Shown: positions 25,185 to 63,698 of the stretch, in pieces
Position numbering within the stretch: the stretch's first letter is position 1
Layout of the letters: each line of letters begins with the position of its first letter
From: Candidatus Omnitrophota bacterium
GTDB lineage: Bacteria; Omnitrophota; Gorgyraeia; Gorgyraeales; Gorgyraeaceae
NCBI GenBank assembly: GCA_043821705.1
Contig: JBDRCN010000001.1
Coordinates: 8,851 to 72,850, forward strand
Reading direction: 5' to 3'
Length of the DNA stretch: 64,000 bases
Program-made: the position numbers and the translations under genes
Notes under the pieces: model-generated
The model's database searches: none
What the model was told of the DNA's origin: nothing
The model's input: only the letters and a program-made list of their open reading frames with translations

Positions 25185-25362
25185 TGAGGCCATAACTTAC
25201 GGAGCACGAAGTGTGACGTAAGTTATTTGGCCGAACATACCCCACACCCAACATTTATTGTGTCTGTTTTAAGGGGTATTGAAAATAACTAAAACACCAC
25301 GCTCAAGCATTAACAACAAAATGATAAATGCTGGGTGTGGGGTTTAACTCGCGCATTGACTT
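25185..25362 (+). other. Structured gyrB-gyrA spacer (hairpin ataacttacg...cgtaagttat; long-range IR ccccacacccaac...ctgggtgtgggg)
   Basis: Inverted repeats were read directly from the sequence. Confidence 0.5.
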
Positions 25363-28300
25363 ATGTCGCATTTTATGCTCCATAAGCCAAGCGCTCGTAA
25401 AATGTACACACAAAATGAAAAATTAGTCCCAGTCTATATTGAAGATGAAATGAAGAATTCCTATATTACGTATGCAATGAGCGTAATAGTAGGAAGAGCT
25501 CTTCCTGATGTCAGGGATGGTCTAAAGCCAGTACATAGAAGGATCCTCTATGCAATGAGAGAGCTGGGGCTGGAACATAGCAAGGCTTATAAAAAATCAG
25601 CCAGGATCGTTGGAGAATGCTTTGTAAAAGATACTCTGGTATTGACACAAAAGGGCCTGGTCCCTATTCAGGAAATCGAGCGGGGCGACAAGGTATTCAC
25701 GCAAAACGCGGCAAGGAGTGTTAGCGAGTTATACGAGATGCCAAAGAGAGAACTCCTTAAAATCACACTGGAAAACGGTACCAGCAACATAGCTACATTT
25801 TCGCAAAAATTTAAGGTATTGAATAAAAATCTAGAGTTTGTATGGAAAGAGGCAAAGGAACTCAATAAAAATGATTATATTGTTATAAGAGCGCATTATC
25901 CTGAAATTAAAGATATGGCAGGTTTGAAGCGCTCGGCAGCAAGGCATCCGTTTTATTTGAATGAAGATATAGCGTATATTTTAGGGCTTTTAATATCAGA
26001 TGGCTGGATCGAGAGGCCCAACGGAAGGCAGCGGAACAGGATGTGCTTTTATTCTGCCAATAGAAAAGTTATGGAGAAAGTGAGTTCGATGTTCGAAAGA
26101 GCGTTTGGTTATAGGCCGAATATCGAGGAGAAGATACATAAAGGAACCACAAAGGACGGCAAGCCATTAAAGAAGGGATATTCAGTAAGGATTAATAGGC
26201 AGGCTATAAATGATTTCTTTGCGGCAAATTTTCACTTGGAAGGACTTAAGGCGAAAACCAAGATAATCCCGCAACAGATATTTGTTTCTCCAAAGAGAAT
26301 AATATTTGCTTTTGTTGCGGGGCTTCTTGAAGGAGATGGCAGCATTCATCGCGGAAGAAATGTTGTACATTATGGATCTATTTCAGAGAAATTGATAGAT
26401 GGTTTGGCAGTGCTTTTACAGCACCAGGGTATTTTTGGCAGGAAATACAAGGCAAGATCTTCAGCGTCTAGTAGTTATATAGGAGGCAGGCTAGTTGCAC
26501 GCAGAGAGGTTTTTTATAGCTTGGAATTCAGAAGCTCTAACGCATTACTATTAGCGTCCAATATTAATCTTGTTGATAAAAAGAAGAACGCCAGGCTGCG
26601 CAACCTTTTTACCAATAGAATAATTCCTTCGGGCCAGGATATTATACCTTATGGAGGGGCCAGGATATTTGAAGAACTTAGCGCAAGACATATAGGAGGC
26701 GGCTGGTACAAGGGGGTTAATGGCAGCAAATTTAAACAAGGCATAAAATATCCTGATGGAGCTAAGATAAGATATTCGCATAATCTTCTAGAAAAACCTT
26801 TGAGAAAATCTCAAGTTCTAGAATGGGGGATTAAAGAAAAATTAGAAAGATTAGGATCGCCCCTCTCTGTTTTTATTGACAATATAGTAGATAATAAAAT
26901 TTATTTCTCGAAAGTTTCATCGGTAGAAAAATCAGCCCCGCAAGTAACATACGATATCCAGGTTGAACAGGATCACGAGTTTATCGCAAACGGGATGATT
27001 TCTCATAATTGTCTTGGTAAATATCATCCTCATGGAGATACAGCAGTATATGACTCGCTAGTCAGGATGGTGCAGGATTTTTCATTGAGGTATCCTTTGG
27101 TGGATGGACAGGGGAACTTCGGGTCTGTCGACGGTGATGCTCCTGCAGCAATGAGGTATACTGAAGCTCGCATGGCATCTATCGCGGATGAGATGCTCTC
27201 GGATATTGACAAAGGCACAGTAGATTTTACTCCTAATTTCGATGAAACACTGGAAGAACCGACTGTCCTGCCTGCGAAATTGCCAGGGCTATTAGTAAAT
27301 GGCTCCAGCGGTATAGCTGTGGGCATGGCAACTAATGTCCCACCACATAATCTATCTGAGATAGTGGATGCTATTGTAAAATTGATCAGCGACCCAGGGT
27401 GTTCTATTAAAGATCTGATGAAAATTGTTAAAGGGCCTGATTTTCCAACAGGAGGGATCATCTGCGGCAGAGAAGGCATTAAAAAAGCTTATGAAACAGG
27501 CAGAGGCCTTTTAAAGCTTCATGCAAAAGCAGCAATAGAGCAGCAAAAAGGCAACAAAGAAGCTATTATTATTACAGAGATCCCTTACCAAGTAAATAAA
27601 TCAAAGCTCATTGAGAATATGGCAAGCCTTGTACAGGATAAAAAAATAGAAGGCATTGCTGACATAAGGGACGAGTCCGATAAAGATGGTATGAGGATAG
27701 TAGTCGATCTAAAGAGAGACCAGAACGCACAGATCGTTTTAAACCAACTCTATAAACGTACCCAGATGGAGATGACCTTTGGCGTCATCACATTAGCATT
27801 AGTGGATCTCAGGCCAAAGGTATTGAACTTAAAAGAAGTACTTGAATTATACATAAAACATAGAATTGAGATCATAAAAAGAAGAACACAATTCGAACTG
27901 AATAAAGCTGAAAGAAGAGCTCATATATTAGAAGGGCTGAAAATAGCAATAGACAATCTCACTAAGATCATAAAGACCATAAGAGAATCAAAAGATCCTA
28001 AGATAGCCAAAGACGCATTAATGAAAAATTTTGATCTTTCAGAGGTCCAGGCGCAGGCTATTTTAGAGATGCAGCTTCAGCGTCTTACTGCACTTGAGAG
28101 AGGGAAGATAGAAAAAGAATACCTGGAGCTATTAAAGAGAATAGAGATGTTAAAATCTATATTAAAGAGCGAGAAGAAGATATTAGAGATCATAAAGGAC
28201 GAAGCATTAGAGGTTAAGAAAAAATACGGGGATGAACGTAGAACTGAAATAGTAGCGAGGCAGGAAGAGATCGAGATAGAAGACCTGATAGCAGAAGAAG

Positions 28301-29223
28301 ACATGGTTATCACAATAAGCCATTCTGGTTATATAAAACGCCTCCCAACAGGTTCTTACAAAAAACAAAAACGAGGGGGAGTAGGCGTAACAGGCATGGA
28401 TATGAAAGATGAAGATTTTATCGAGCATCTTTTTATCGCTTCTACTCATGAATATATACTATTTTTTACTAATCAAGGGAGAGTGCATTGGTTAAAGGTA
28501 TATGAGATACCACAGGCTTCCCGCTCCGGAAGAGGCAAGGCAGTAGTAAACTTATTACAGCTTTCATCAGGGGAAAAGATCTCTTCTTATGTCAGGGTAA
28601 AAGAATTCAAAGAAGGATTATATCTTGTGATGGCTACCAAGAACGGCCTTATCAAGAAGACAGATCTGATGGCTTATTCAAACCCAAGAAAAGGCGGGAT
28701 AATAGGCATTACTATCGAGAAGGATGACGAACTTATAGAAGTTAAGTGGACAGATGGCAGCCATGAAATAATGTTGGCGTCCAAAGAAGGAAAGGCTATC
28801 TGTTTTTCAGAAAAGCAAGTCAGGGATATGGGTAGAGGCGCAAAAGGAGTAAAAGGGATAAAGCTTGGTAAGAAGGATGAGCTTATAGCAATGGACATAG
28901 CGAGAAAAGACGCGACTGTCTTAACAGTTGCTTCTCAAGGTTTTGCAAAGCGTACATCTATAAACGAATATAGAAAACAGTCTAGGGGCGGCAAGGGTGT
29001 AAAGAATATAAGCGTTACGAGTAAAACCGGAGAAGCTGTAGGTGTATTGATGGTACATGACAATGACGAGCTTATGGTCATGACTGTGAAAGGAATGATC
29101 GTAAGGTTCGCTGTGAAAGATGTCCGCGCTACAGGCAGAAGCACCCAGGGGGTCCGCATAATAAAACTTGATCCTGGCGACAAGGTAGCAAATGTTGCTC
29201 GAGTGATCCCAGAAGAAGAATAG
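25363..29223 (+). CDS. gyrA: DNA gyrase subunit A containing an in-frame intein (mature GyrA is 822 aa)
   Basis: 1286-aa ORF. Extein motifs: [44 protein letters not shown]. The true start is probably M14 (25402). Confidence 0.95.
25618..27009 (+). other. GyrA intein (464 aa) with LAGLIDADG homing-endonuclease domain
   Basis: Begins with Cys ([10 protein letters not shown]) right after RIVGE and ends in ...ISHN followed by +1 Cys ([10 protein letters not shown]). Two LAGLIDADG blocks are present: [11 protein letters not shown] and [10 protein letters not shown]. Confidence 0.9.
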
Positions 29224-29410: not shown

Positions 29411-29487
29411 TTTCTTTTATCTCAAAGTTGTTGACGCATCAACATCAAATATACTATAATCTAGAAAATAACCTACGGAGGTGTTGT

Positions 29488-30273
29488 ATGAAAAGACTTG
29501 TGATAGTCTTTACTGCTTTATTTTTATTATGCGCGTTTACTGTCTATGTAAATGCTGCGCCTGTGACTTGTCCTGCCAGTGTTAAAGAGATGAAAGGGAA
29601 TGATTATATAGACAAGGATTCTAACATAGCTTTTTTAGTATCTCTCGAATCTGATTTTATAACTGAGAAAGACTTAGACGAAAGCGATGGACAAGTAGAA
29701 GGAACTATGCACGTAGGCAAATTAGTAGTAAGCTTTGACAAAGTTGATTTTTATGCACTTTTAGGGGGAACTGGGAACCTAGAATACAGCGCAAGCATTT
29801 CTGGTGCGAATGTTTTATATGAATTAGAAGATAAATTTTTATGGGGCCTAGGAGCAAGTGGTCTGATCAAGAAATGGGACAAACACGGTATACAGCTTTT
29901 TGGGGACCTTTCTTATAGAACAACAGGCGATATGGAATATGACATAGTGACTTTAAATGGTACCCAGTTTTCTAAATCACAGCTTACACCTGCGACAGAT
30001 GCCAAATATGAAGAATGGCAGATAGCTCTTAGTGTGGCAAAAAAGTTCCAGTATATGACACCTTACGCTGGTATTAAATATTCAAATCTTGATGCATCAG
30101 CTGATGTAACGATCTCCAGTACTCGCTACGCATTAAGCGATGCTGAAAACGATAATCCTGTGGGTATATTTTTAGGGTGCGCTCTCATGCCTTTGGACAA
30201 TATGTCCATAGACCTAGAAGGCCGCTTTATTGACGAAGAGGCTTTTAGCGTATCTCTGAACTACGAGTTCTAA
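29488..30273 (+). CDS. Outer-membrane beta-barrel protein (signal peptide, C-terminal ...LNYEF)
   Basis: RBS ggagg lies upstream of the ATG at 29488; the track ORF starts at 29428. The terminal aromatic Phe is typical of BamA substrates. Confidence 0.65.
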   Translation: MKRLVIVFTALFLLCAFTVYVNAAPVTCPASVKEMKGNDYIDKDSNIAFLVSLESDFITEKDLDESDGQVEGTMHVGKLVVSFDKVDFYALLGGTGNLEYSASISGANVLYELEDKFLWGLGASGLIKKWDKHGIQLFGDLSYRTTGDMEYDIVTLNGTQFSKSQLTPATDAKYEEWQIALSVAKKFQYMTPYAGIKYSNLDASADVTISSTRYALSDAENDNPVGIFLGCALMPLDNMSIDLEGRFIDEEAFSVSLNYEF

Positions 30274-58931: not shown

Positions 58932-59168
58932 TTGAATAAGAGGGAAGACTATATGATAGATAAGATCGATGATGATTTTTTAATGGTCAACAGAGGCCAT
59001 ATATACGAGACTGCTATGGGGAGCCTAGAAAAGCTCATCATTGAAAAAGCCCTTGAAAAATCATTTGGCAATAAGATAATAGCTGCAAAGATCCTTGGTA
59101 TCCATAGGAACACACTATATACTAAGGTAAAGAAATTATGTATTAATTCGGAGCGTTATAAGATATGA
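58932..59168 (+). CDS. Fis-family / NtrC-C-terminal-type HTH protein (stand-alone)
   Basis: The C-terminus AAKILGIHRNTLYTKVKKL is an HTH_8 motif. The stop overlaps the gltB ATG. Confidence 0.6.
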   Translation: MNKREDYMIDKIDDDFLMVNRGHIYETAMGSLEKLIIEKALEKSFGNKIIAAKILGIHRNTLYTKVKKLCINSERYKI

Positions 59169-62100
59169 AAAGGACACATTTTCCAGAAAAACAGGGGCTA
59201 TATGATCCGCAGTTCGAGAAGGATGCTTGCGGCGTAGGGTTTGTCTGCAGTATTAAAGGGGAAAAGTCCAACTCTATTGTAAAACAAGGCATAGAGGTCC
59301 TGAATCGTCTTTCTCATCGAGGCGCAGTAGGATCTGATCCAAAGACAGGGGACGGCGCTGGGATCCTTATACAAACTCCGCATGAATTTTTTGTTAAGAT
59401 AGCTAAAAGAGCTAATATCGATCTGCCAGGACCAGGCTCTTATGGTACTGGACTTATATTTTTACCTCAAGACCCTCAAGACAGAAAGTCATGTAAAGGC
59501 ATATTTGAAGATACAATAAAAGAACATGGCCAAGTCCTTTTAGGCTGGAGGGATGTGCCAGTAGATGAAACTAACATTGGGAAGACTGCAAAAGACAGCA
59601 AACCCATATTCCAGCAGATATTTATAGGTAGAAGCAAGGATGTGAACGATGTCTTGGCTTTTGAAAGAAAGCTTTATGTCATAAGAAAACATGTCGAAAG
59701 CAGTATCAGCTTGTCTGGTTTAAAGGAGAAAAGATCATTTTATATAACTAATATATCTTGCTGTACATTTTCTTATAAGGGGCTTCTGATGCCAAGCCAG
59801 CTTGAGGAATTTTTTCTTGACCTTAAAGATGATTCGCTCAAAAGTGCCTTGTGTCTAGTACATTCGCGTTATAGTACTAATACATTTCCTACTTGGGACC
59901 TCTCACAGCCGTTTAGATTTTTAGCCCACAATGGAGAGATCAATACCATCAGAGGTAATGTAAATTGGGTAAGCGCTAGGGAAAGGCTTTTAGCAAGCGG
60001 ACTATTCGATCTAGACATAGAAAAGCTTAAACCTATTATTGTTGAAGGTGGAAGTGATTCAGCGCAAATAGATAATTTTTTTGAACTTTTAGTCCTGTCA
60101 GGTAGATCTCTTGGCCATGCTATGATGATGCTTATACCAGAGGCATGGGAAGGCAATAGTTCTATCAAGAAAGAGCTTAAGGAGTTTTATAGATATCATG
60201 CATGTTTTATGGAGCCGTGGGATGGGCCTGCTGCAATAGCATTTACTGACGGCCGATCTATAGGGGCAGTTCTGGACAGGAATGGGCTTCGTCCTGCGCG
60301 CTATATTGTGACTAACAATGATTTTGTTGTAATGGCATCTGAAGTAGGGGGTGCTGGATATACCAGCGAAAGATATAAAGCTTTCAGGAAGACTTGAACC
60401 AGGGAAGATCTTCTTTATTGATACTGAGGCTGGCAAGATCATACATGATTCCGAGATCAAAGAAGGACTTTCAGCGCGCTCCCCATATGAAGAATGGAAT
60501 AAAAATAACATAGTATATCTTGATAAGATGGTCAGTAGCCGGAGAGGAGGTCAAAAATTAGATGACCTCATCTCTAATCTTAAAGCATTTGGCTATTCTC
60601 GCGAAGACCTGAAGATCATCCTAAAACCTATGGCTGAGGAAGGGAAAGAACCTGTTGGTTCTATGGGCAATGATACTCCTCACGCATTTTTATCTAACAA
60701 ATCACAGCTTATATATAATTATTTCAGACAACTCTTTGCCCAAGTCACTAATCCAGCTATAGACCCTATAAGGGAAAAACTTGTGATGAGCCTTGATAGT
60801 TTTATAGGGCCTGAACAGAATATCCTGGAAGAAACGCCGCTACATAGCCATAAGATCATGGTAAAAAACCCGATCCTCACAAACGATGAACTTGAGAAGC
60901 TGCAGGATATAAGTATGAATGGTTTTAAGGCAAAGACCATATATACATTTTTTGATAAAAATACAGGAAAAGAAGGTTTTGTAAAAGCGCTTGAAAGGAT
61001 ATGTTTTGAAGCAGAATATGCTATTGAGAAAGGATATTCCTTTATTATATTGAGCGACAGAGGAGCTGATAAAGATAATATCGCGCTTCCCTCGCTTTTA
61101 GCTACAAGCGCTGTGCATCAACATCTTGTCAGGAAAACTATACGTTCCCAGGTAGCTTTGATAGTTGAAAGCGCAGAACCAAGAGAGGTCCATCATTTTG
61201 CACTTCTCTTTGCTTATGGAGCAGGTTGTATCAATCCATATCTGGCATATGAAGCGATCGACTATCTTATCTCACAAAATGAGATCCATGTAGACATCAA
61301 AAGCGCTATAAAGAATTACAATAAGGCAATAAGGGACGGGATACTAAAGATACTCTCGAAGATGGGTATATGCACTCTCAGGAGTTATAAAGGCGCTCAG
61401 ATATTTGAAGCGCTAGGTTTAGATGACTCTGTGATAGAAAAATATTTTACTGGCACTGTCTCTAGGATAGGCGGGGTTGATATCGAGGGCATAGCAGAAG
61501 AGACTATAGATAGGCACAAAGAAGCATATCCTGCCAGGGATGTCGGGAATGACCACCTGACAAGCGGAGGGGTCTATCAATATAAAAAAGACGGAGAATT
61601 CCATCTATGGAATCCTGATACAATATCGAGCCTGCAGGATGCCACAAGAAATAATGACTATGAAAAATATAAAAAGTTCGCAGGTTTTATAAATGACCAG
61701 TCAGGAAATCCTACGACACTAAGAAGCCTTTTTAAGTTTAAAAAAACACGATCTATCCCTATAGATAAGGTAGAGCCTATTGAAGACATCATGAAACGTT
61801 TTGCAACAGGTGCGATGAGCTTTGGTTCTATCTCAAGCTCAGCTCACGAGACTATTGCTATTGCGATGAATAGGATCGGAGGAAAATCTAATACAGGAGA
61901 AGGCGGTGAAGACCCGAACAGGTTTATAACATTACCAACTGGAGATTCAAGAAGGAGTGCTATAAAACAGGTCGCATCAGGCAGGTTCGGGGTCACTATA
62001 AATTATCTTACAAACGCAGATGAGATACAGATAAAGATCGCTCAAGGTGCTAAGCCAGGAGAAGGAGGACAGCTTCCAGGGCATAAGGTAAGCGAGGTGA

Positions 62101-63698
62101 TCGCGAGGACTAGATACACCACTCAAGGAGTGACTCTTATTTCACCTCCGCCACATCACGATATATATTCTATAGAAGATCTTGCGCAGCTTATCTTTGA
62201 TCTAAAGAACGCTAATCCTTACGCAAGGATCAGCGTCAAACTTGTTTCAGAAGTAGGGGTAGGCACTGTTGCAGCTGGTGTAGCAAAAGGCCATGCTGAT
62301 ATGATCCTTATCTCAGGTGGAGATGGCGGCACAGGTGCTTCTCCCAGGAGTTCTATAAGATACGCAGGCCTTCCCTGGGAGTTAGGCCTCTCTGAAACCC
62401 ATCAGATATTAGTATTAAATAATCTGCGCTCAAGGGTCAGACTACAGACTGATGGCCAGATGAGGACAGGAAAAGATGTTGCTATCGCAGCTATGCTTGG
62501 AGCAGAGGAATATGGTTTTTGTACAGCATGTTTGATAATAATGGGTTGTGTGATGCTCAGGCATTGCCATCTGAATAATTGTTCAGTAGGTGTTGCGACT
62601 CAGGACAGCATATTGCAGAAGAAATTCATGGGAAAACCAGAACATATTGTTAATTATTTTCATTTTATAGCAAAGGAAATACGCGAGATCTTGGCTTCTC
62701 TAGGAATTGAGAAGATGGACAATCTCATAGGTAGATGTGATCTTATAGAGGTGGATAAAAGCCTAGCTCCTAAAAAAGCAAAAAATATAGATTATTCAAG
62801 GATACTTTATAGTTTAAATGTCCCTAAGAACATTGGCAGGCGTTATGAGCCTAAGAAGGAAGAGCCTTTAAAACATGTTCTTGATAGAGAGCTTATAAAG
62901 AGATGCGAGCCTCTATTTAAAGAAAACAAACCAGTGAATATATCGCTGGGGATCAATAACACAAATAGAGCTACAGGTACTATGCTCAGTGGTGAAATAA
63001 ATAGAAGATGTGGGGACGGTGTGCTTCTAGAGGATACAGTTATCTGTAAATTCAAGGGTATTGCTGGCCAGAGTTTTGGCGCATGGCTTGCAAAAGGAGT
63101 TACATTCCATCTTGAAGGCATGGCAAATGATTATACAGGAAAAGGTATTTCAGGAGGAAAGATCATTATATACCCTGACAAGGACGCAAGATATAAAAGC
63201 GATGAGAATGTAATAATAGGTAATACTACTTTTTATGGAGCTATCCAAGGAGAAGCATATATCAGAGGGATAGCTGGGGAGAGGTTCTGCATACGCAATT
63301 CTGGGCTATATGCTGTCTGCGAAGGCGTAGGAGACCACGCTTGCGAATATATGACAGGTGGAAGGGTCGTCATATTAGGAAGGACAGGAAGGAATTTTGC
63401 AGCTGGTATGTCTGGCGGGATAGCATATGTATATGATGAAGATAATTCTTTTAAGGATAGATGCAATACTGATATGGTAGAACTAGAAAGCATAAAAGAA
63501 AAAGACAAAGATACGATATATCACCTTCTCCATAACCATTTTAAATATACAGGCAGTGAGAAGGCAAAAAATATCCTCGATGACCTGAATAAAGAACTGA
63601 AAAGATTCATAAGGGTCATCCCAATGGAATATAAGAGGATAGTAGAAGGTATCGAGGTAGAAGAGAAGCTAGACTTATTGGAGGAATCTGATGGGTGA
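59165..63698 (+). CDS. gltB: Glutamate synthase large subunit GltB, interrupted by a +1 frameshift in a G5 run (ORFs 59165..60397 and 60351..63698)
   Basis: The amidotransferase domain ends ...MASEVGG, and the rest continues in the +1 frame as [18 protein letters not shown]. Removing one G from 60346-60350 restores the canonical SEVGVLDIP. Confidence 0.85.

What the first reader, a model, noticed from the sequence alone, without database searches (positions are those of the whole stretch)
25618..27009. 464-aa LAGLIDADG intein in GyrA at a site upstream of the catalytic tyrosine
The insertion splits RIVGE | [10 protein letters not shown], while AAMRYTEAR, the insertion site of the well-known mycobacterial GyrA inteins, is intact further downstream. 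The intein has all splicing hallmarks (Cys1, terminal HN, Cys+1) and a full homing-endonuclease domain, so it is probably active and mobile. The gyrA inteins I recall all sit at the Tyr site, so this may be a second GyrA insertion site.
Basis: partly seen in the sequence, partly recalled or inferred. Interest (0 to 1): 0.6.

Follow-up and report, generated by a model that had tools for sequence, protein, structure and literature searches.

The report
GyrA intein lacking the conserved histidine
The gyrase A gene of this uncultured Omnitrophota-like bacterium is interrupted by a real, probably active 464-residue self-splicing intein at a site that differs from the textbook mycobacterial one; the site is common in public genomes of uncultured microbes, and this whole intein family has glutamine in place of the histidine described as the most conserved intein residue.

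Summary
Nt 25618-27009 encode a 464-aa in-frame insertion (Cys1 ... His-Asn | Cys+1) in gyrA. Removing it restores a gyrase A that is colinear with E. coli GyrA and with intein-less Omnitrophota GyrA.

The insertion is a class-1 intein with a two-motif LAGLIDADG endonuclease (Pfam, AlphaFold plus Foldseek). It lies between E. coli residues D72 and V73, 10 residues before Ser83 and 50 before the catalytic Tyr122. This is not the classical GyrA intein site.

The site is not unique. A scan found relatives in at least 129 species genomes, and every relative whose junction could be read sits at this same site. Hosts are Omnitrophota, CPR/Patescibacteria, WOR-3, Elusimicrobiota, Thermoplasmatota, Woesearchaeota and Micrarchaeota. 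Related gyrA genes also carry inteins at G110|S111 and at Y122|T123.

Three results point to mobility:
- the closest GyrA relatives are mostly intein-less;
- intein similarity does not track host similarity;
- dN/dS is about 0.1 in both the splicing and the endonuclease parts.

The reviews I read list only one functional His-less intein group.

Verdict: an ordinary kind of element, with a mechanistically non-canonical variant.

The parts
25363..29223 (+). gyrA precursor ORF (1286 aa from the first ATG; the probable true start is ATG 25402)
   Evidence: It lies in the yidC(-) | dnaA dnaN gyrB gyrA origin-region cluster.
25363..25617 (+). N-extein, ending ...KKSARIVGE. The -1 residue Glu corresponds to E. 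coli Asp72.
25618..27009 (+). Intein, 464 aa (Cys1 ... His463-Asn464)
25618..25932 (+). N-terminal splicing (HINT) part, intein residues 1-105. Block A is Cys1-Phe2.
   Evidence: The model is beta-rich with pLDDT 93-97 here. phmmer aligns it to HINT/intein structures 2lwy and 6qaz.
25795..25806 (+). Block B reads T60-F-S-Q63. Thr B:7 is present. The B:10 position is Gln (codon CAA) instead of the canonical His.
   Evidence: Q63 aligns with the His of TFDH in 2lwy and of SEEH in gp41-1, and with His in 135 other inteins. Q is invariant in 76/76 members, encoded by CAG 39 times and CAA 37 times.
25975..26007 (+). LAGLIDADG motif 1 ([11 protein letters not shown]). The catalytic acid is Asp128.
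   Evidence: Asp or Glu in 76/76 members.
26311..26343 (+). LAGLIDADG motif 2 ([11 protein letters not shown]). The catalytic acid is Asp240.
   Evidence: Asp in 75/76 members.
26635..26892 (+). Conserved region between the endonuclease core and block F. It holds the invariant H358-x-G-G-G-W-Y motif and K371, K383, R385 and Y386. I infer that it recognises DNA.
   Evidence: Invariant columns. Function was not tested.
26947..27009 (+). Blocks F and G ([21 protein letters not shown]): Asp446 (F:4), His453 (F:13), His463 (G:6), Asn464 (G:7)
   Evidence: All four residues are invariant in 76/76 members. TIGR01443 intein_Cterm matches.
27010..27012 (+). Cys+1 (TGT), the first C-extein residue. It corresponds to E. 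coli Val73.
   Evidence: Intein-less relatives have Val here in 93 of 120 cases.
27010..29223 (+). C-extein: [10 protein letters not shown]..., the catalytic-Tyr motif and the GyrA C-terminal beta-pinwheel
27106..27138 (+). GQGNFG|SVDGD. This is an empty copy of a second GyrA intein site (E. coli G110|S111) that is occupied in 10 of 80 related loci.
27145..27171 (+). AAMRY|TEAR. This is an empty copy of the classical GyrA intein site at the catalytic tyrosine. It is occupied in 3 of 80 related loci.

Best explanation
This is a functional class-1 intein with a nested two-motif LAGLIDADG homing endonuclease. It sits in the essential chromosomal gyrA gene of an Omnitrophota-like bacterium, between the residues equivalent to E. 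coli GyrA Asp72 and Val73. That position is inside the quinolone-resistance-determining region, 10 residues before Ser83.

Inferred mechanism:
- gyrA is translated as a precursor of about 1270-1286 aa.
- Cys1 attacks the Glu(-1)-Cys1 peptide bond (N-S acyl shift).
- Cys+1 takes over the N-extein by trans-thioesterification.
- Asn464 cyclises, helped by His463, and releases the intein.
- An S-N shift leaves ...[13 protein letters not shown]... in mature gyrase A.
- The freed intein acts as a site-specific endonuclease. It cuts intein-less gyrA alleles at the highly conserved SARx[13 protein letters not shown] coding sequence, so the intein gene is copied in by repair (homing).

This allelic family has spread by homing across many uncultured bacterial and archaeal phyla.

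The first splicing step must be activated unusually. The block B histidine that normally strains or protonates the scissile bond is an invariant glutamine, paired with an invariant Phe2. I infer that the Gln amide keeps a hydrogen-bonding role at the scissile peptide. The rest of the activation would come from steric strain (Phe2, bulky acidic -1 residue), Thr60 (B:7), Asp446 (F:4) and possibly Lys66.

Shown here: anatomy, site, family distribution, conservation, selection and patchy presence. Inferred: splicing, nuclease activity and the role of Gln63.
For: - Boundaries and reading frame.
- Domains: Intein_splicing plus two LAGLIDADG_3 stretches, intein_Cterm.
- Fold: pLDDT 88.8, with best PDB matches to endonuclease-containing inteins at E=1e-24 to 1e-12.
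- The host is the real gyrase A, in a dnaA-dnaN-gyrB-gyrA cluster.
- Site numbering comes from an alignment with E. coli K-12 GyrA.
- Same site in all relatives examined. These were 23 protein hits and the 78 of the 80 kept genomic loci in which the C-junction could be read (both junctions in 66). The 43 representative clusters at E<1e-30 almost all begin at residues 70-95 of roughly 1200-1350-aa proteins.
- Catalytic residues in 76 members: C1, T60, D446, H453, H463 and N464 are invariant, all 76 have Cys at +1, and the LAGLIDADG acids are kept in 76/76 and 75/76.
- Purifying selection: dN/dS is 0.04-0.34 for the splicing part and 0.06-0.14 for the endonuclease part in 10 closely related pairs.
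- Patchy presence: none of the 120 closest GyrA N-termini listed carries an intein at this site. The best of them (P0172, 88% identical) is intein-less but keeps Cys at +1, as expected after precise loss. P0173 (87%) has Val.
- Horizontal spread: L080 has an extein 86% identical to the window but an intein only 49% identical. In CPR, WOR-3 and archaeal hosts the extein is 46-53% identical and the intein 51-54%.
- Gln at B:10. In the model, T60 ends a strand and residues 61-63 form the following turn. This matches the beta-turn location of Thr B:7 and His B:10 described in PMC4031507.
Against: - No experiment shows splicing or DNA cleavage.
- Mutating His B:10 blocks the first splicing step in most studied inteins (PMC7765530), so the Gln63 form might splice slowly or only under some conditions.
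- I could not get model coordinates, so the geometry of Gln63 relative to the scissile bond is unverified.
- The window is only 64 kb. A second, intein-free gyrA or parC elsewhere in the genome cannot be excluded.
- Strong purifying selection on the endonuclease part could also reflect a structural role in splicing rather than nuclease activity.
- The intein's G+C content (39.4%) equals that of the host, so there is no sign of recent arrival in this particular genome.
Confidence: 0.85

Rival explanations
1. The intein still splices but its endonuclease is dead. On this view the intein is fixed and inherited vertically, and no longer homes.
For: No nuclease assay exists. The intein's base composition equals the host's. 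Within the closest Omnitrophota group (L001-L009), intein identity (66-68%) and extein identity (77-86%) are both high, which could be vertical descent.
Against: Both LAGLIDADG catalytic acids are kept in 75-76 of 76 members. dN/dS in the endonuclease part is 0.06-0.14, as low as in the splicing part. The closest relatives are mostly intein-less. Intein similarity and extein similarity are decoupled across phyla and domains.
Confidence: 0.1
2. Conditional or regulatory intein. Loss of the block B histidine, together with the Cys1/Cys+1 pair, makes splicing slow or dependent on conditions such as redox state, DNA or temperature. The intein would then gate gyrase maturation instead of being purely selfish.
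For: Gln is invariant at the catalytic B:10 position. The intein sits in the DNA-gate/QRDR region of an essential replication enzyme. Conditional protein splicing in replication proteins has been proposed (PMC4760082; PMC7360933, listed).
Against: There is no direct evidence. Most close relatives do without the intein, which argues against an indispensable regulatory role. The distribution looks like that of a mobile selfish element.
Confidence: 0.15
3. Decaying, non-splicing insertion in a gyrA pseudogene, or an assembly artefact.
For: The canonical block B histidine is missing. One of the two His-less inteins known in 2014 was a pseudogene (PMC4031507).
Against: The 1286-codon frame is uninterrupted. 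All other catalytic residues are intact. The same architecture recurs in at least 129 independently assembled genomes. Both Gln codons are used, and a His codon never appears. dN/dS is about 0.1. The gene is in the canonical dnaA-dnaN-gyrB-gyrA cluster.
Confidence: 0.02

Closest known systems
Mycobacterial GyrA inteins (Mxe, Mle, Mka and others; PDB 1AM2; NCBIfam NF038098 GyrA_w_intein)
   Same: Same host protein. Class-1 chemistry with Cys1 and a C-terminal His-Asn. Weak sequence similarity in blocks F and G (1am2 E=4.5e-5). The full-length mycobacterial versions also carry a LAGLIDADG endonuclease.
   Different: - Insertion site: the mycobacterial inteins sit after the catalytic Tyr (Y122|T123 in E. 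coli numbering) with Thr at +1. This one sits at D72|V73 with Cys at +1.
- The NF038098 score of 991 is below its 1850 cut-off.
- Block B is TxxH in Mxe GyrA (TANH, from my memory of the sequence) and TxxQ here.
- Hosts are cultured Actinobacteria there, and uncultured Omnitrophota, CPR and DPANN-like lineages here.
Endonuclease-containing archaeal inteins of known structure: TliVMA/PhoVMA (7qss, 7qst), PI-PfuI (1dq3), PI-TkoII (2cw7), PI-SceI (1vde)
   Same: Same overall architecture: a HINT splicing domain interrupted by a two-motif LAGLIDADG endonuclease plus an extra DNA-binding region. These are the best structural matches (TM 0.46-0.64, E=1e-24 to 1e-12) and the best sequence matches in the PDB.
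   Different: Different host genes (VMA ATPase, RNR, DNA polymerase). Only 13-20% sequence identity. To my knowledge those inteins have the canonical block B His.
Tko CDC21-1 intein and its orthologues (Tori et al. 2012, as cited in PMC4031507, PMC6333167 and PMC7765530)
   Same: A natural, functional class-1 intein group that lacks the block B histidine and must activate the N-terminal splice junction in another way.
   Different: A different host (archaeal CDC21/MCM) and a small thermophile group. Compensation there is by Lys58, outside the conserved motifs, with Leu at -1. Here the replacement is an invariant Gln, with invariant Phe2, Lys/Arg at B:13 and Glu/Asp at -1. The family is large and spans both prokaryotic domains. 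No homology between the two groups was shown here.
Other GyrA intein alleles seen in the related loci: G110|S111 and Y122|T123
   Same: Same host, within the same 50-residue stretch around the DNA-cleavage centre. They can co-occur with the D72|V73 intein in one gene (for example L008, L010, P0007).
   Different: The G110|S111 inteins have Ser at +1. They are either minis (166-178 aa) or carry an HNH-like insert instead of LAGLIDADG. Their block B keeps His, as do the Y122|T123 inteins aligned (for example TLDHPFML in L008; TSNHPLL in P0036).

Membership tests
Intein (class 1, HINT superfamily) | An in-frame insertion in a conserved host protein whose removal restores a colinear host sequence | tested here: met
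   The spliced sequence aligns without a gap at the junction to E. coli GyrA and to intein-less Omnitrophota GyrA. It passes the gyrA equivalog cut-offs.
Intein (class 1, HINT superfamily) | Nucleophile at position 1 (Cys/Ser), C-terminal Asn (usually preceded by His), and a Cys/Ser/Thr nucleophile at +1 | tested here: met
   Cys1, His463-Asn464 and Cys+1 are present and invariant in 76/76 relatives.
Intein (class 1, HINT superfamily) | HINT fold with blocks A, B, F and G, including Asp at F:4 and His at F:13 | tested here: met
   Pfam Intein_splicing E=9.7e-19. The AlphaFold model matches inteins in the PDB. D446 and H453 are invariant.
Intein (class 1, HINT superfamily) | Block B TxxH motif (Thr B:7 and His B:10). 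This is a highly conserved assisting motif, not a formal requirement: Tko CDC21-1 splices without the His. | tested here: not met
   Thr60 is present, but B:10 is Gln63. Because a functional His-less precedent exists, this marks a mechanistic variant and does not exclude the element from the inteins.
Intein (class 1, HINT superfamily) | Autocatalytic protein splicing | not testable with these tools
   Inferred from conservation, from purifying selection and from the essential nature of gyrA.
Class 3 inteins (WCT motif) | No position-1 nucleophile, Trp at B:12, Cys at F:4 and Thr at G:5 | tested here: not met
   Cys1 is present. F:4 is Asp446. B:12 is Phe65.
LAGLIDADG homing endonuclease (monomeric, two motifs) | Two LAGLIDADG helices, each ending in a catalytic Asp or Glu, within the alpha-beta-beta-alpha-beta-beta-alpha fold | tested here: met
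   Pfam LAGLIDADG_3 matches twice. Motifs LGLLISDG (D128) and AGLLEGDG (D240) are present. Foldseek matches I-DmoI, I-SceI and PI-SceI.
LAGLIDADG homing endonuclease (monomeric, two motifs) | Site-specific DNA cleavage of the intein-less allele | not testable with these tools
   Supported indirectly by dN/dS of 0.06-0.14 in this domain and by the patchy, host-discordant distribution.
Classical GyrA intein allele (mycobacterial; NCBIfam NF038098) | Insertion immediately after the catalytic tyrosine (AAMRY|T) and a score above the family cut-off | tested here: not met
   AAMRYTEAR is intact at nt 27145-27171. The insertion lies 50 residues upstream. NF038098 scores 991 bits against a cut-off of 1850.
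DNA gyrase subunit A (host protein) | Passes the NCBIfam gyrA equivalog models and has the GyrA C-terminal beta-pinwheel repeats | tested here: met
   NF004043 scores 1221 bits (cut-off 902) and TIGR01063 scores 1189 (cut-off 877). DNA_gyraseA_C matches six times. The gene is adjacent to gyrB.

The most novel reading that the evidence does not exclude
The D72|V73 GyrA inteins would be a large natural class-1 intein lineage, spanning both prokaryotic domains, that has permanently replaced the 'most conserved intein residue' (His B:10) with glutamine. It would splice by a distinct activation mechanism for the N-S acyl shift: a Gln63 amide hydrogen bond plus strain from Phe2 and the acidic -1 residue. 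Splicing might be conditional, gating maturation of gyrase at its DNA-cleavage and quinolone-binding centre. This would give a new natural scaffold for histidine-independent, and so possibly pH-insensitive, intein tools. It would also be a second, much larger exception to the TxxH rule.
Probability: 0.3. Interest if true: 0.65.

Novelty: new variant of a known kind. Interest (0 to 1): 0.45.

Why it matters
Inteins in GyrA are textbook material and tool material (the Mxe GyrA intein), but only the catalytic-tyrosine site has been characterised.

This window, with its relatives, shows that gyrase A has at least three intein homing sites packed into the 50 residues around its DNA-cleavage and quinolone-binding centre. 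The D72|V73 allele is widespread in uncultured Bacteria and Archaea. Genome surveys have met such sequences and discarded them: 23 archaeal GyrA intein sequences were removed in PMC9348778.

The more useful point is mechanistic. An entire, strongly constrained family works, presumably, with Gln in place of the block B histidine that the reviews call the most conserved and usually essential intein residue. That gives protein-splicing researchers a natural system for studying histidine-independent activation of the first splicing step. It may also give protein engineers a new scaffold.

For annotation, it explains why these gyrA genes are mis-split or labelled 'LAGLIDADG family homing endonuclease', 'hypothetical protein' or 'topoisomerase 4 subunit A, partial'.

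Tried and rejected
- Literature on GyrA intein sites. Five searches and readings of PMC4760082, PMC3359363, PMC5874633, PMC6390638 and PMC9348778 found no paper that maps GyrA inteins to D72|V73 or to G110|S111. Novikova et al. 2016 count 50 GyrA inteins in Actinobacteria, Aquificae, Chloroflexi and Proteobacteria but give no sites in the text, and their supplements are not held. InBase cannot be reached. So 'undescribed site' is unproven.
- Literature on TxxQ inteins. Only Tko CDC21-1 and a pseudogene are cited as His-less. Nothing was found on Gln at B:10.
- Viral vector. The IMG/VR scan found no close relative. The best hit is 27% identical. That hit (L083) is nevertheless a GyrA-like gene with a divergent member of the family at the same site.
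- Polarity of the His-to-Gln change. A quick NJ tree did not resolve whether the few TxxH inteins at the same site (P0047, P0054, P0144) are ancestral or revertants. There are no support values, so I did not rely on it.
- Phe2 as the compensating residue. Phe2 goes with Gln at B:10 in 56 of 58 cases, against Leu, Val or Ile in 101 of 116 inteins with His. The Gln set is essentially one clade, so this is not independent covariation.
- Recent arrival from a foreign genome. Rejected for this window, because the intein (39.4% G+C) and the host (39.4-40.8%) have the same composition.
- Class 3 intein, BIL domain or pretoxin-HINT. Rejected: Cys1, Asp at F:4, His-Asn plus Cys+1, and insertion in a conserved host motif. 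The Pfam PT-HINT and Hint_2 matches are below their cut-offs.
- RNA element in the gyrB-gyrA spacer. Rfam gave only chance hairpin matches.
Full report
**1. The observation**

The + strand ORF 25363..29223 encodes 1286 aa. Residues 86-549 (nt 25618-27009, 464 aa) begin with CFVKDT and end with ISHN.

Deleting them leaves an 822-aa protein. It aligns without a gap at the junction to E. coli K-12 GyrA, read from NC_000913.3, and to intein-less Omnitrophota GyrA. The precursor passes the NCBIfam gyrA equivalogs.

The gene lies in a yidC(-) | dnaA-dnaN-gyrB-gyrA arrangement typical of a chromosomal origin region. Homologues start at MYAQNEKL, so the true start is probably ATG 25402 rather than 25363.

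**2. What the insertion is**

- The 464 aa match Pfam Intein_splicing (E=9.7e-19) and LAGLIDADG_3 twice (E=1.9e-20). They also match TIGR01443 intein_Cterm.
- An AlphaFold2 model built from a 12-sequence family alignment is confident (mean pLDDT 88.8, pTM 0.89).
- Its best PDB matches are all endonuclease-containing inteins: TliVMA 7qss at E=1e-24, then PI-PfuI, PI-TkoII and PI-SceI. Free-standing LAGLIDADG enzymes follow.
- The two LAGLIDADG motifs, [11 protein letters not shown] and [11 protein letters not shown], keep their catalytic Asp residues.

So this is a full-length class-1 intein with a nested two-motif LAGLIDADG homing endonuclease.

**3. Where it sits**

In E. coli numbering the insertion lies between Asp72 and Val73. 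That is inside the quinolone-resistance-determining region, 10 residues before Ser83 and 50 before the catalytic Tyr122. The region's limits (residues 67-106) are from my own knowledge.

The classical mycobacterial GyrA intein site, AAMRY|T, is intact here at nt 27145-27171. NCBIfam's mycobacterial model GyrA_w_intein scores only 991 bits against a cut-off of 1850.

**4. The site is not unique to this window**

- A protein search with the intein alone returned 23 relatives at 35-56% identity. All are in GyrA fragments and all are at SARxVGE|C[LM]GK[YF]HPHGD.
- A full HMMER scan of 1.84 billion representatives found 43 clusters at E<1e-30. Almost all begin at residues 70-95 of roughly 1200-1350-aa proteins.
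- A scan of one genome per GTDB species found 129 genomes that encode a relative. All 78 of the 80 kept loci in which the C-junction could be read are at this same site (both junctions were readable in 66).
- Hosts are Omnitrophota (closest, 66-68% intein identity), Patescibacteria/CPR, WOR-3/Stahlbacteria, Elusimicrobiota and Desantisbacteria. Archaeal hosts are Thermoplasmatota, Woesearchaeota/Nanoarchaeota and Micrarchaeota.
- Sources label these genes 'DNA gyrase subunit A, partial', 'LAGLIDADG family homing endonuclease' or 'hypothetical protein'.
- Villain et al. 2022 (PMC9348778) noted 23 intein-containing archaeal GyrA sequences and simply removed them from their data set.

Some of the same genes carry further inteins. 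Ten of 80 loci have one at GNFG|S (E. coli G110|S111). Three of 80 have one at the classical Y122|T123 site. GyrA therefore has at least three intein sites within 50 residues, and the window has only the first occupied.

**5. Evidence that it is active and mobile (indirect)**

- In 76 full-length family members, C1, T60 (B:7), D446 (F:4), H453 (F:13), H463, N464 and Cys+1 are invariant. The LAGLIDADG acids are kept in 76/76 and 75/76.
- dN/dS in ten closely related pairs is 0.04-0.34 for the splicing part and 0.06-0.14 for the endonuclease part. Both functions are under purifying selection.
- None of the 120 closest GyrA N-termini listed carries an intein at this site. Position +1 is Val in 93, Thr in 13, Ile in 4 and Cys in 10.
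- The single best hit (P0172, 88% identical) lacks the intein but has [13 protein letters not shown]. That is the footprint expected from precise intein loss. P0173 (87%) has Val.
- Intein and host similarity are decoupled. L080 has an extein 86% identical to the window's but an intein only 49% identical. In CPR, WOR-3 and archaeal hosts the extein is 46-53% identical and the intein 51-54%.
- Together these results fit repeated gain, loss and horizontal transfer by homing.
- The intein's G+C content equals that of the host, so it is not a recent arrival in this genome.
- A viral-contig scan found no close relative. One IMG/VR contig (L083) does encode a GyrA-like protein with a divergent member of the family at the same site.

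**6.

The block B motif, normally T-x-x-H, reads T60-F-S-Q63.

- phmmer aligns Q63 with the histidine of TFDH in the bacterial intein-like domain 2lwy, and with that of SEEH in the gp41-1 intein.
- I aligned 226 intein N-terminal domains from the retrieved proteins to a family HMM. Column 63 is His in 135 of them, nearly all at other sites or in other hosts. It is Gln in 68, almost all at the GyrA D72|V73 site.
- In the model, T60 ends a strand and residues 61-63 form the next turn. This matches the beta-turn position described for Thr B:7 and His B:10 (PMC4031507).
- Gln is invariant in 76/76 family members. It is encoded by CAG 39 times and CAA 37 times, and never by a His codon, which is one substitution away. 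The residue is therefore actively maintained.

[quoted passage not shown] They list only two inteins without it, a pseudogene and Tko CDC21-1, which compensates with Lys58 (PMC4031507, PMC7765530). Engineered loss of the His can be rescued by bulky -1 residues (PMC6333167).

In this family Gln at B:10 goes with invariant Phe2, where other inteins have Leu, Val or Ile. It also goes with Lys or Arg at B:13 and Glu or Asp at -1. These sequences are essentially one clade, so that is a lead and not proof of compensation.

A few inteins at the same GyrA site keep TxxH with Leu2 (P0047, P0054, P0144). Pfam confirmed P0047 and P0144 as GyrA. A quick NJ tree did not resolve which state is ancestral.

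**7. Most likely mechanism**

The precursor is translated whole. Splicing then follows the standard class-1 route:
- Cys1 performs the N-S acyl shift.
- Cys+1 performs the trans-thioesterification.
- Asn464 cyclises, assisted by His463.
- An S-N shift completes the peptide bond and yields mature GyrA with Cys in place of the usual Val73.

The free intein then cuts intein-less gyrA at the very conserved SARx[13 protein letters not shown] coding sequence and is copied in by repair.

Step 1 must be activated without the usual imidazole. I infer that the Gln63 amide keeps the hydrogen bond to the scissile peptide. The rest would come from strain (Phe2 and the acidic -1 residue), Thr60 and Asp446. 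All splicing and nuclease steps are inferred. Anatomy, conservation, selection and distribution are shown.

**8. Rivals**

- Dead endonuclease with vertical inheritance only: disfavoured by dN/dS, by the retained catalytic acids and by the discordant distribution.
- Conditional or regulatory intein: possible and untested. It is weakened because most close relatives lack the intein.
- Pseudogene or assembly artefact: excluded for practical purposes. The frame is intact, the architecture recurs in more than 100 independent assemblies, and selection is purifying.

**9. Comparison with the known, and novelty**

The kind of element is entirely familiar: a class-1 LAGLIDADG intein in a replication protein. 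It is not a member of the classical GyrA intein allele, because both the site and the model score were tested and not met.

I found no paper that describes the D72|V73 or G110|S111 sites. However, I could not consult InBase or the supplements of Novikova et al. 2016, which list 50 GyrA inteins in four phyla without sites in the text. The site may therefore already be catalogued, and it is abundantly present in public assemblies.

The invariant Gln at B:10 across a large, cross-domain family is not mentioned in any review I could read. It is the feature that lifts this from 'another intein' to a variant worth an experiment.

Interest is moderate, at 0.45. The element is ordinary in kind. It is useful as a natural histidine-independent splicing system and as evidence that gyrase A is a multi-site intein target.

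Noticed in passing
L008, L015, L020, L038, L040, L053, L054, L062, L066, L068 (gyrA downstream of the first intein); also P0002, P0006, P0017: A second GyrA intein allele lies at GQGNFG|S (E. coli G110|S111) with Ser at +1. It comes as minis of 166-178 aa, or as 390-527-aa forms. The insert in the long forms carries an HNH-like motif (RIRHH.DFNKLNN.P.NI.R..W..HW) followed by many W.[DN]P.[YF]R..M repeats instead of LAGLIDADG. The repeat domain is unexplained.
   Followed up: partly
L083:2851-4446 (IMGVR_UViG_3300037067_017034, a 50-kb contig classed as viral): It encodes a GyrA-like protein with a divergent member of the same intein family (27% identity) at the same site (KKSARIVGD|CFVKGELV...VVHN|[10 protein letters not shown]). 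It also has Phe2 and TPGQ in block B. This is a possible virus-borne copy, or a misclassified contig.
   Followed up: partly
P0047, P0054, P0144, P0160, P0164: GyrA inteins at the very same D72|V73 site that keep the canonical TxxH block B and start with Cys-Leu rather than Cys-Phe. Whether they are ancestral to the Gln clade or revertants from it is unresolved.
   Followed up: partly
P0078 residues 652-754, P0077 residues 850-941, P0067 residues 80-182: Three other inteins, in multi-intein proteins with no recognisable host domain in Pfam, also align Gln at the block B histidine position. TxxQ may therefore occur outside GyrA.
   Followed up: partly
window 25192-25343 (gyrB-gyrA spacer): A 20-nt inverted repeat (25239-25258 and 25324-25343, 95% complementary, 65 nt apart), plus a 10-nt perfect hairpin (25192-25201 and 25217-25226) just after the gyrB stop. 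It is unique in the window and matches no Rfam family. It could be a terminator, attenuator or regulatory structure between gyrB and gyrA.
   Followed up: partly
window 59165-63698: The glutamate synthase large subunit appears split into two overlapping ORFs (59165..60397 and 60351..63698). The second begins in the middle of the GATase_2 domain (profile positions 373-420). This could be a frameshift, a sequencing error or a pseudogene.
   Followed up: no
window 25363-25402: The longest gyrA ORF starts 13 codons upstream of the position where close homologues start (MYAQNEKL...). The real start is probably ATG 25402.
   Followed up: partly
window 29428-30273: The ORF after tRNA-Glu (281 aa, TTG start) has a signal-peptide-like N-terminus and a Pfam match to the Chlamydia major outer membrane protein family (E=3e-6, 26.6 bits against a cut-off of 20). 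It may be a porin-like beta-barrel protein.
   Followed up: no
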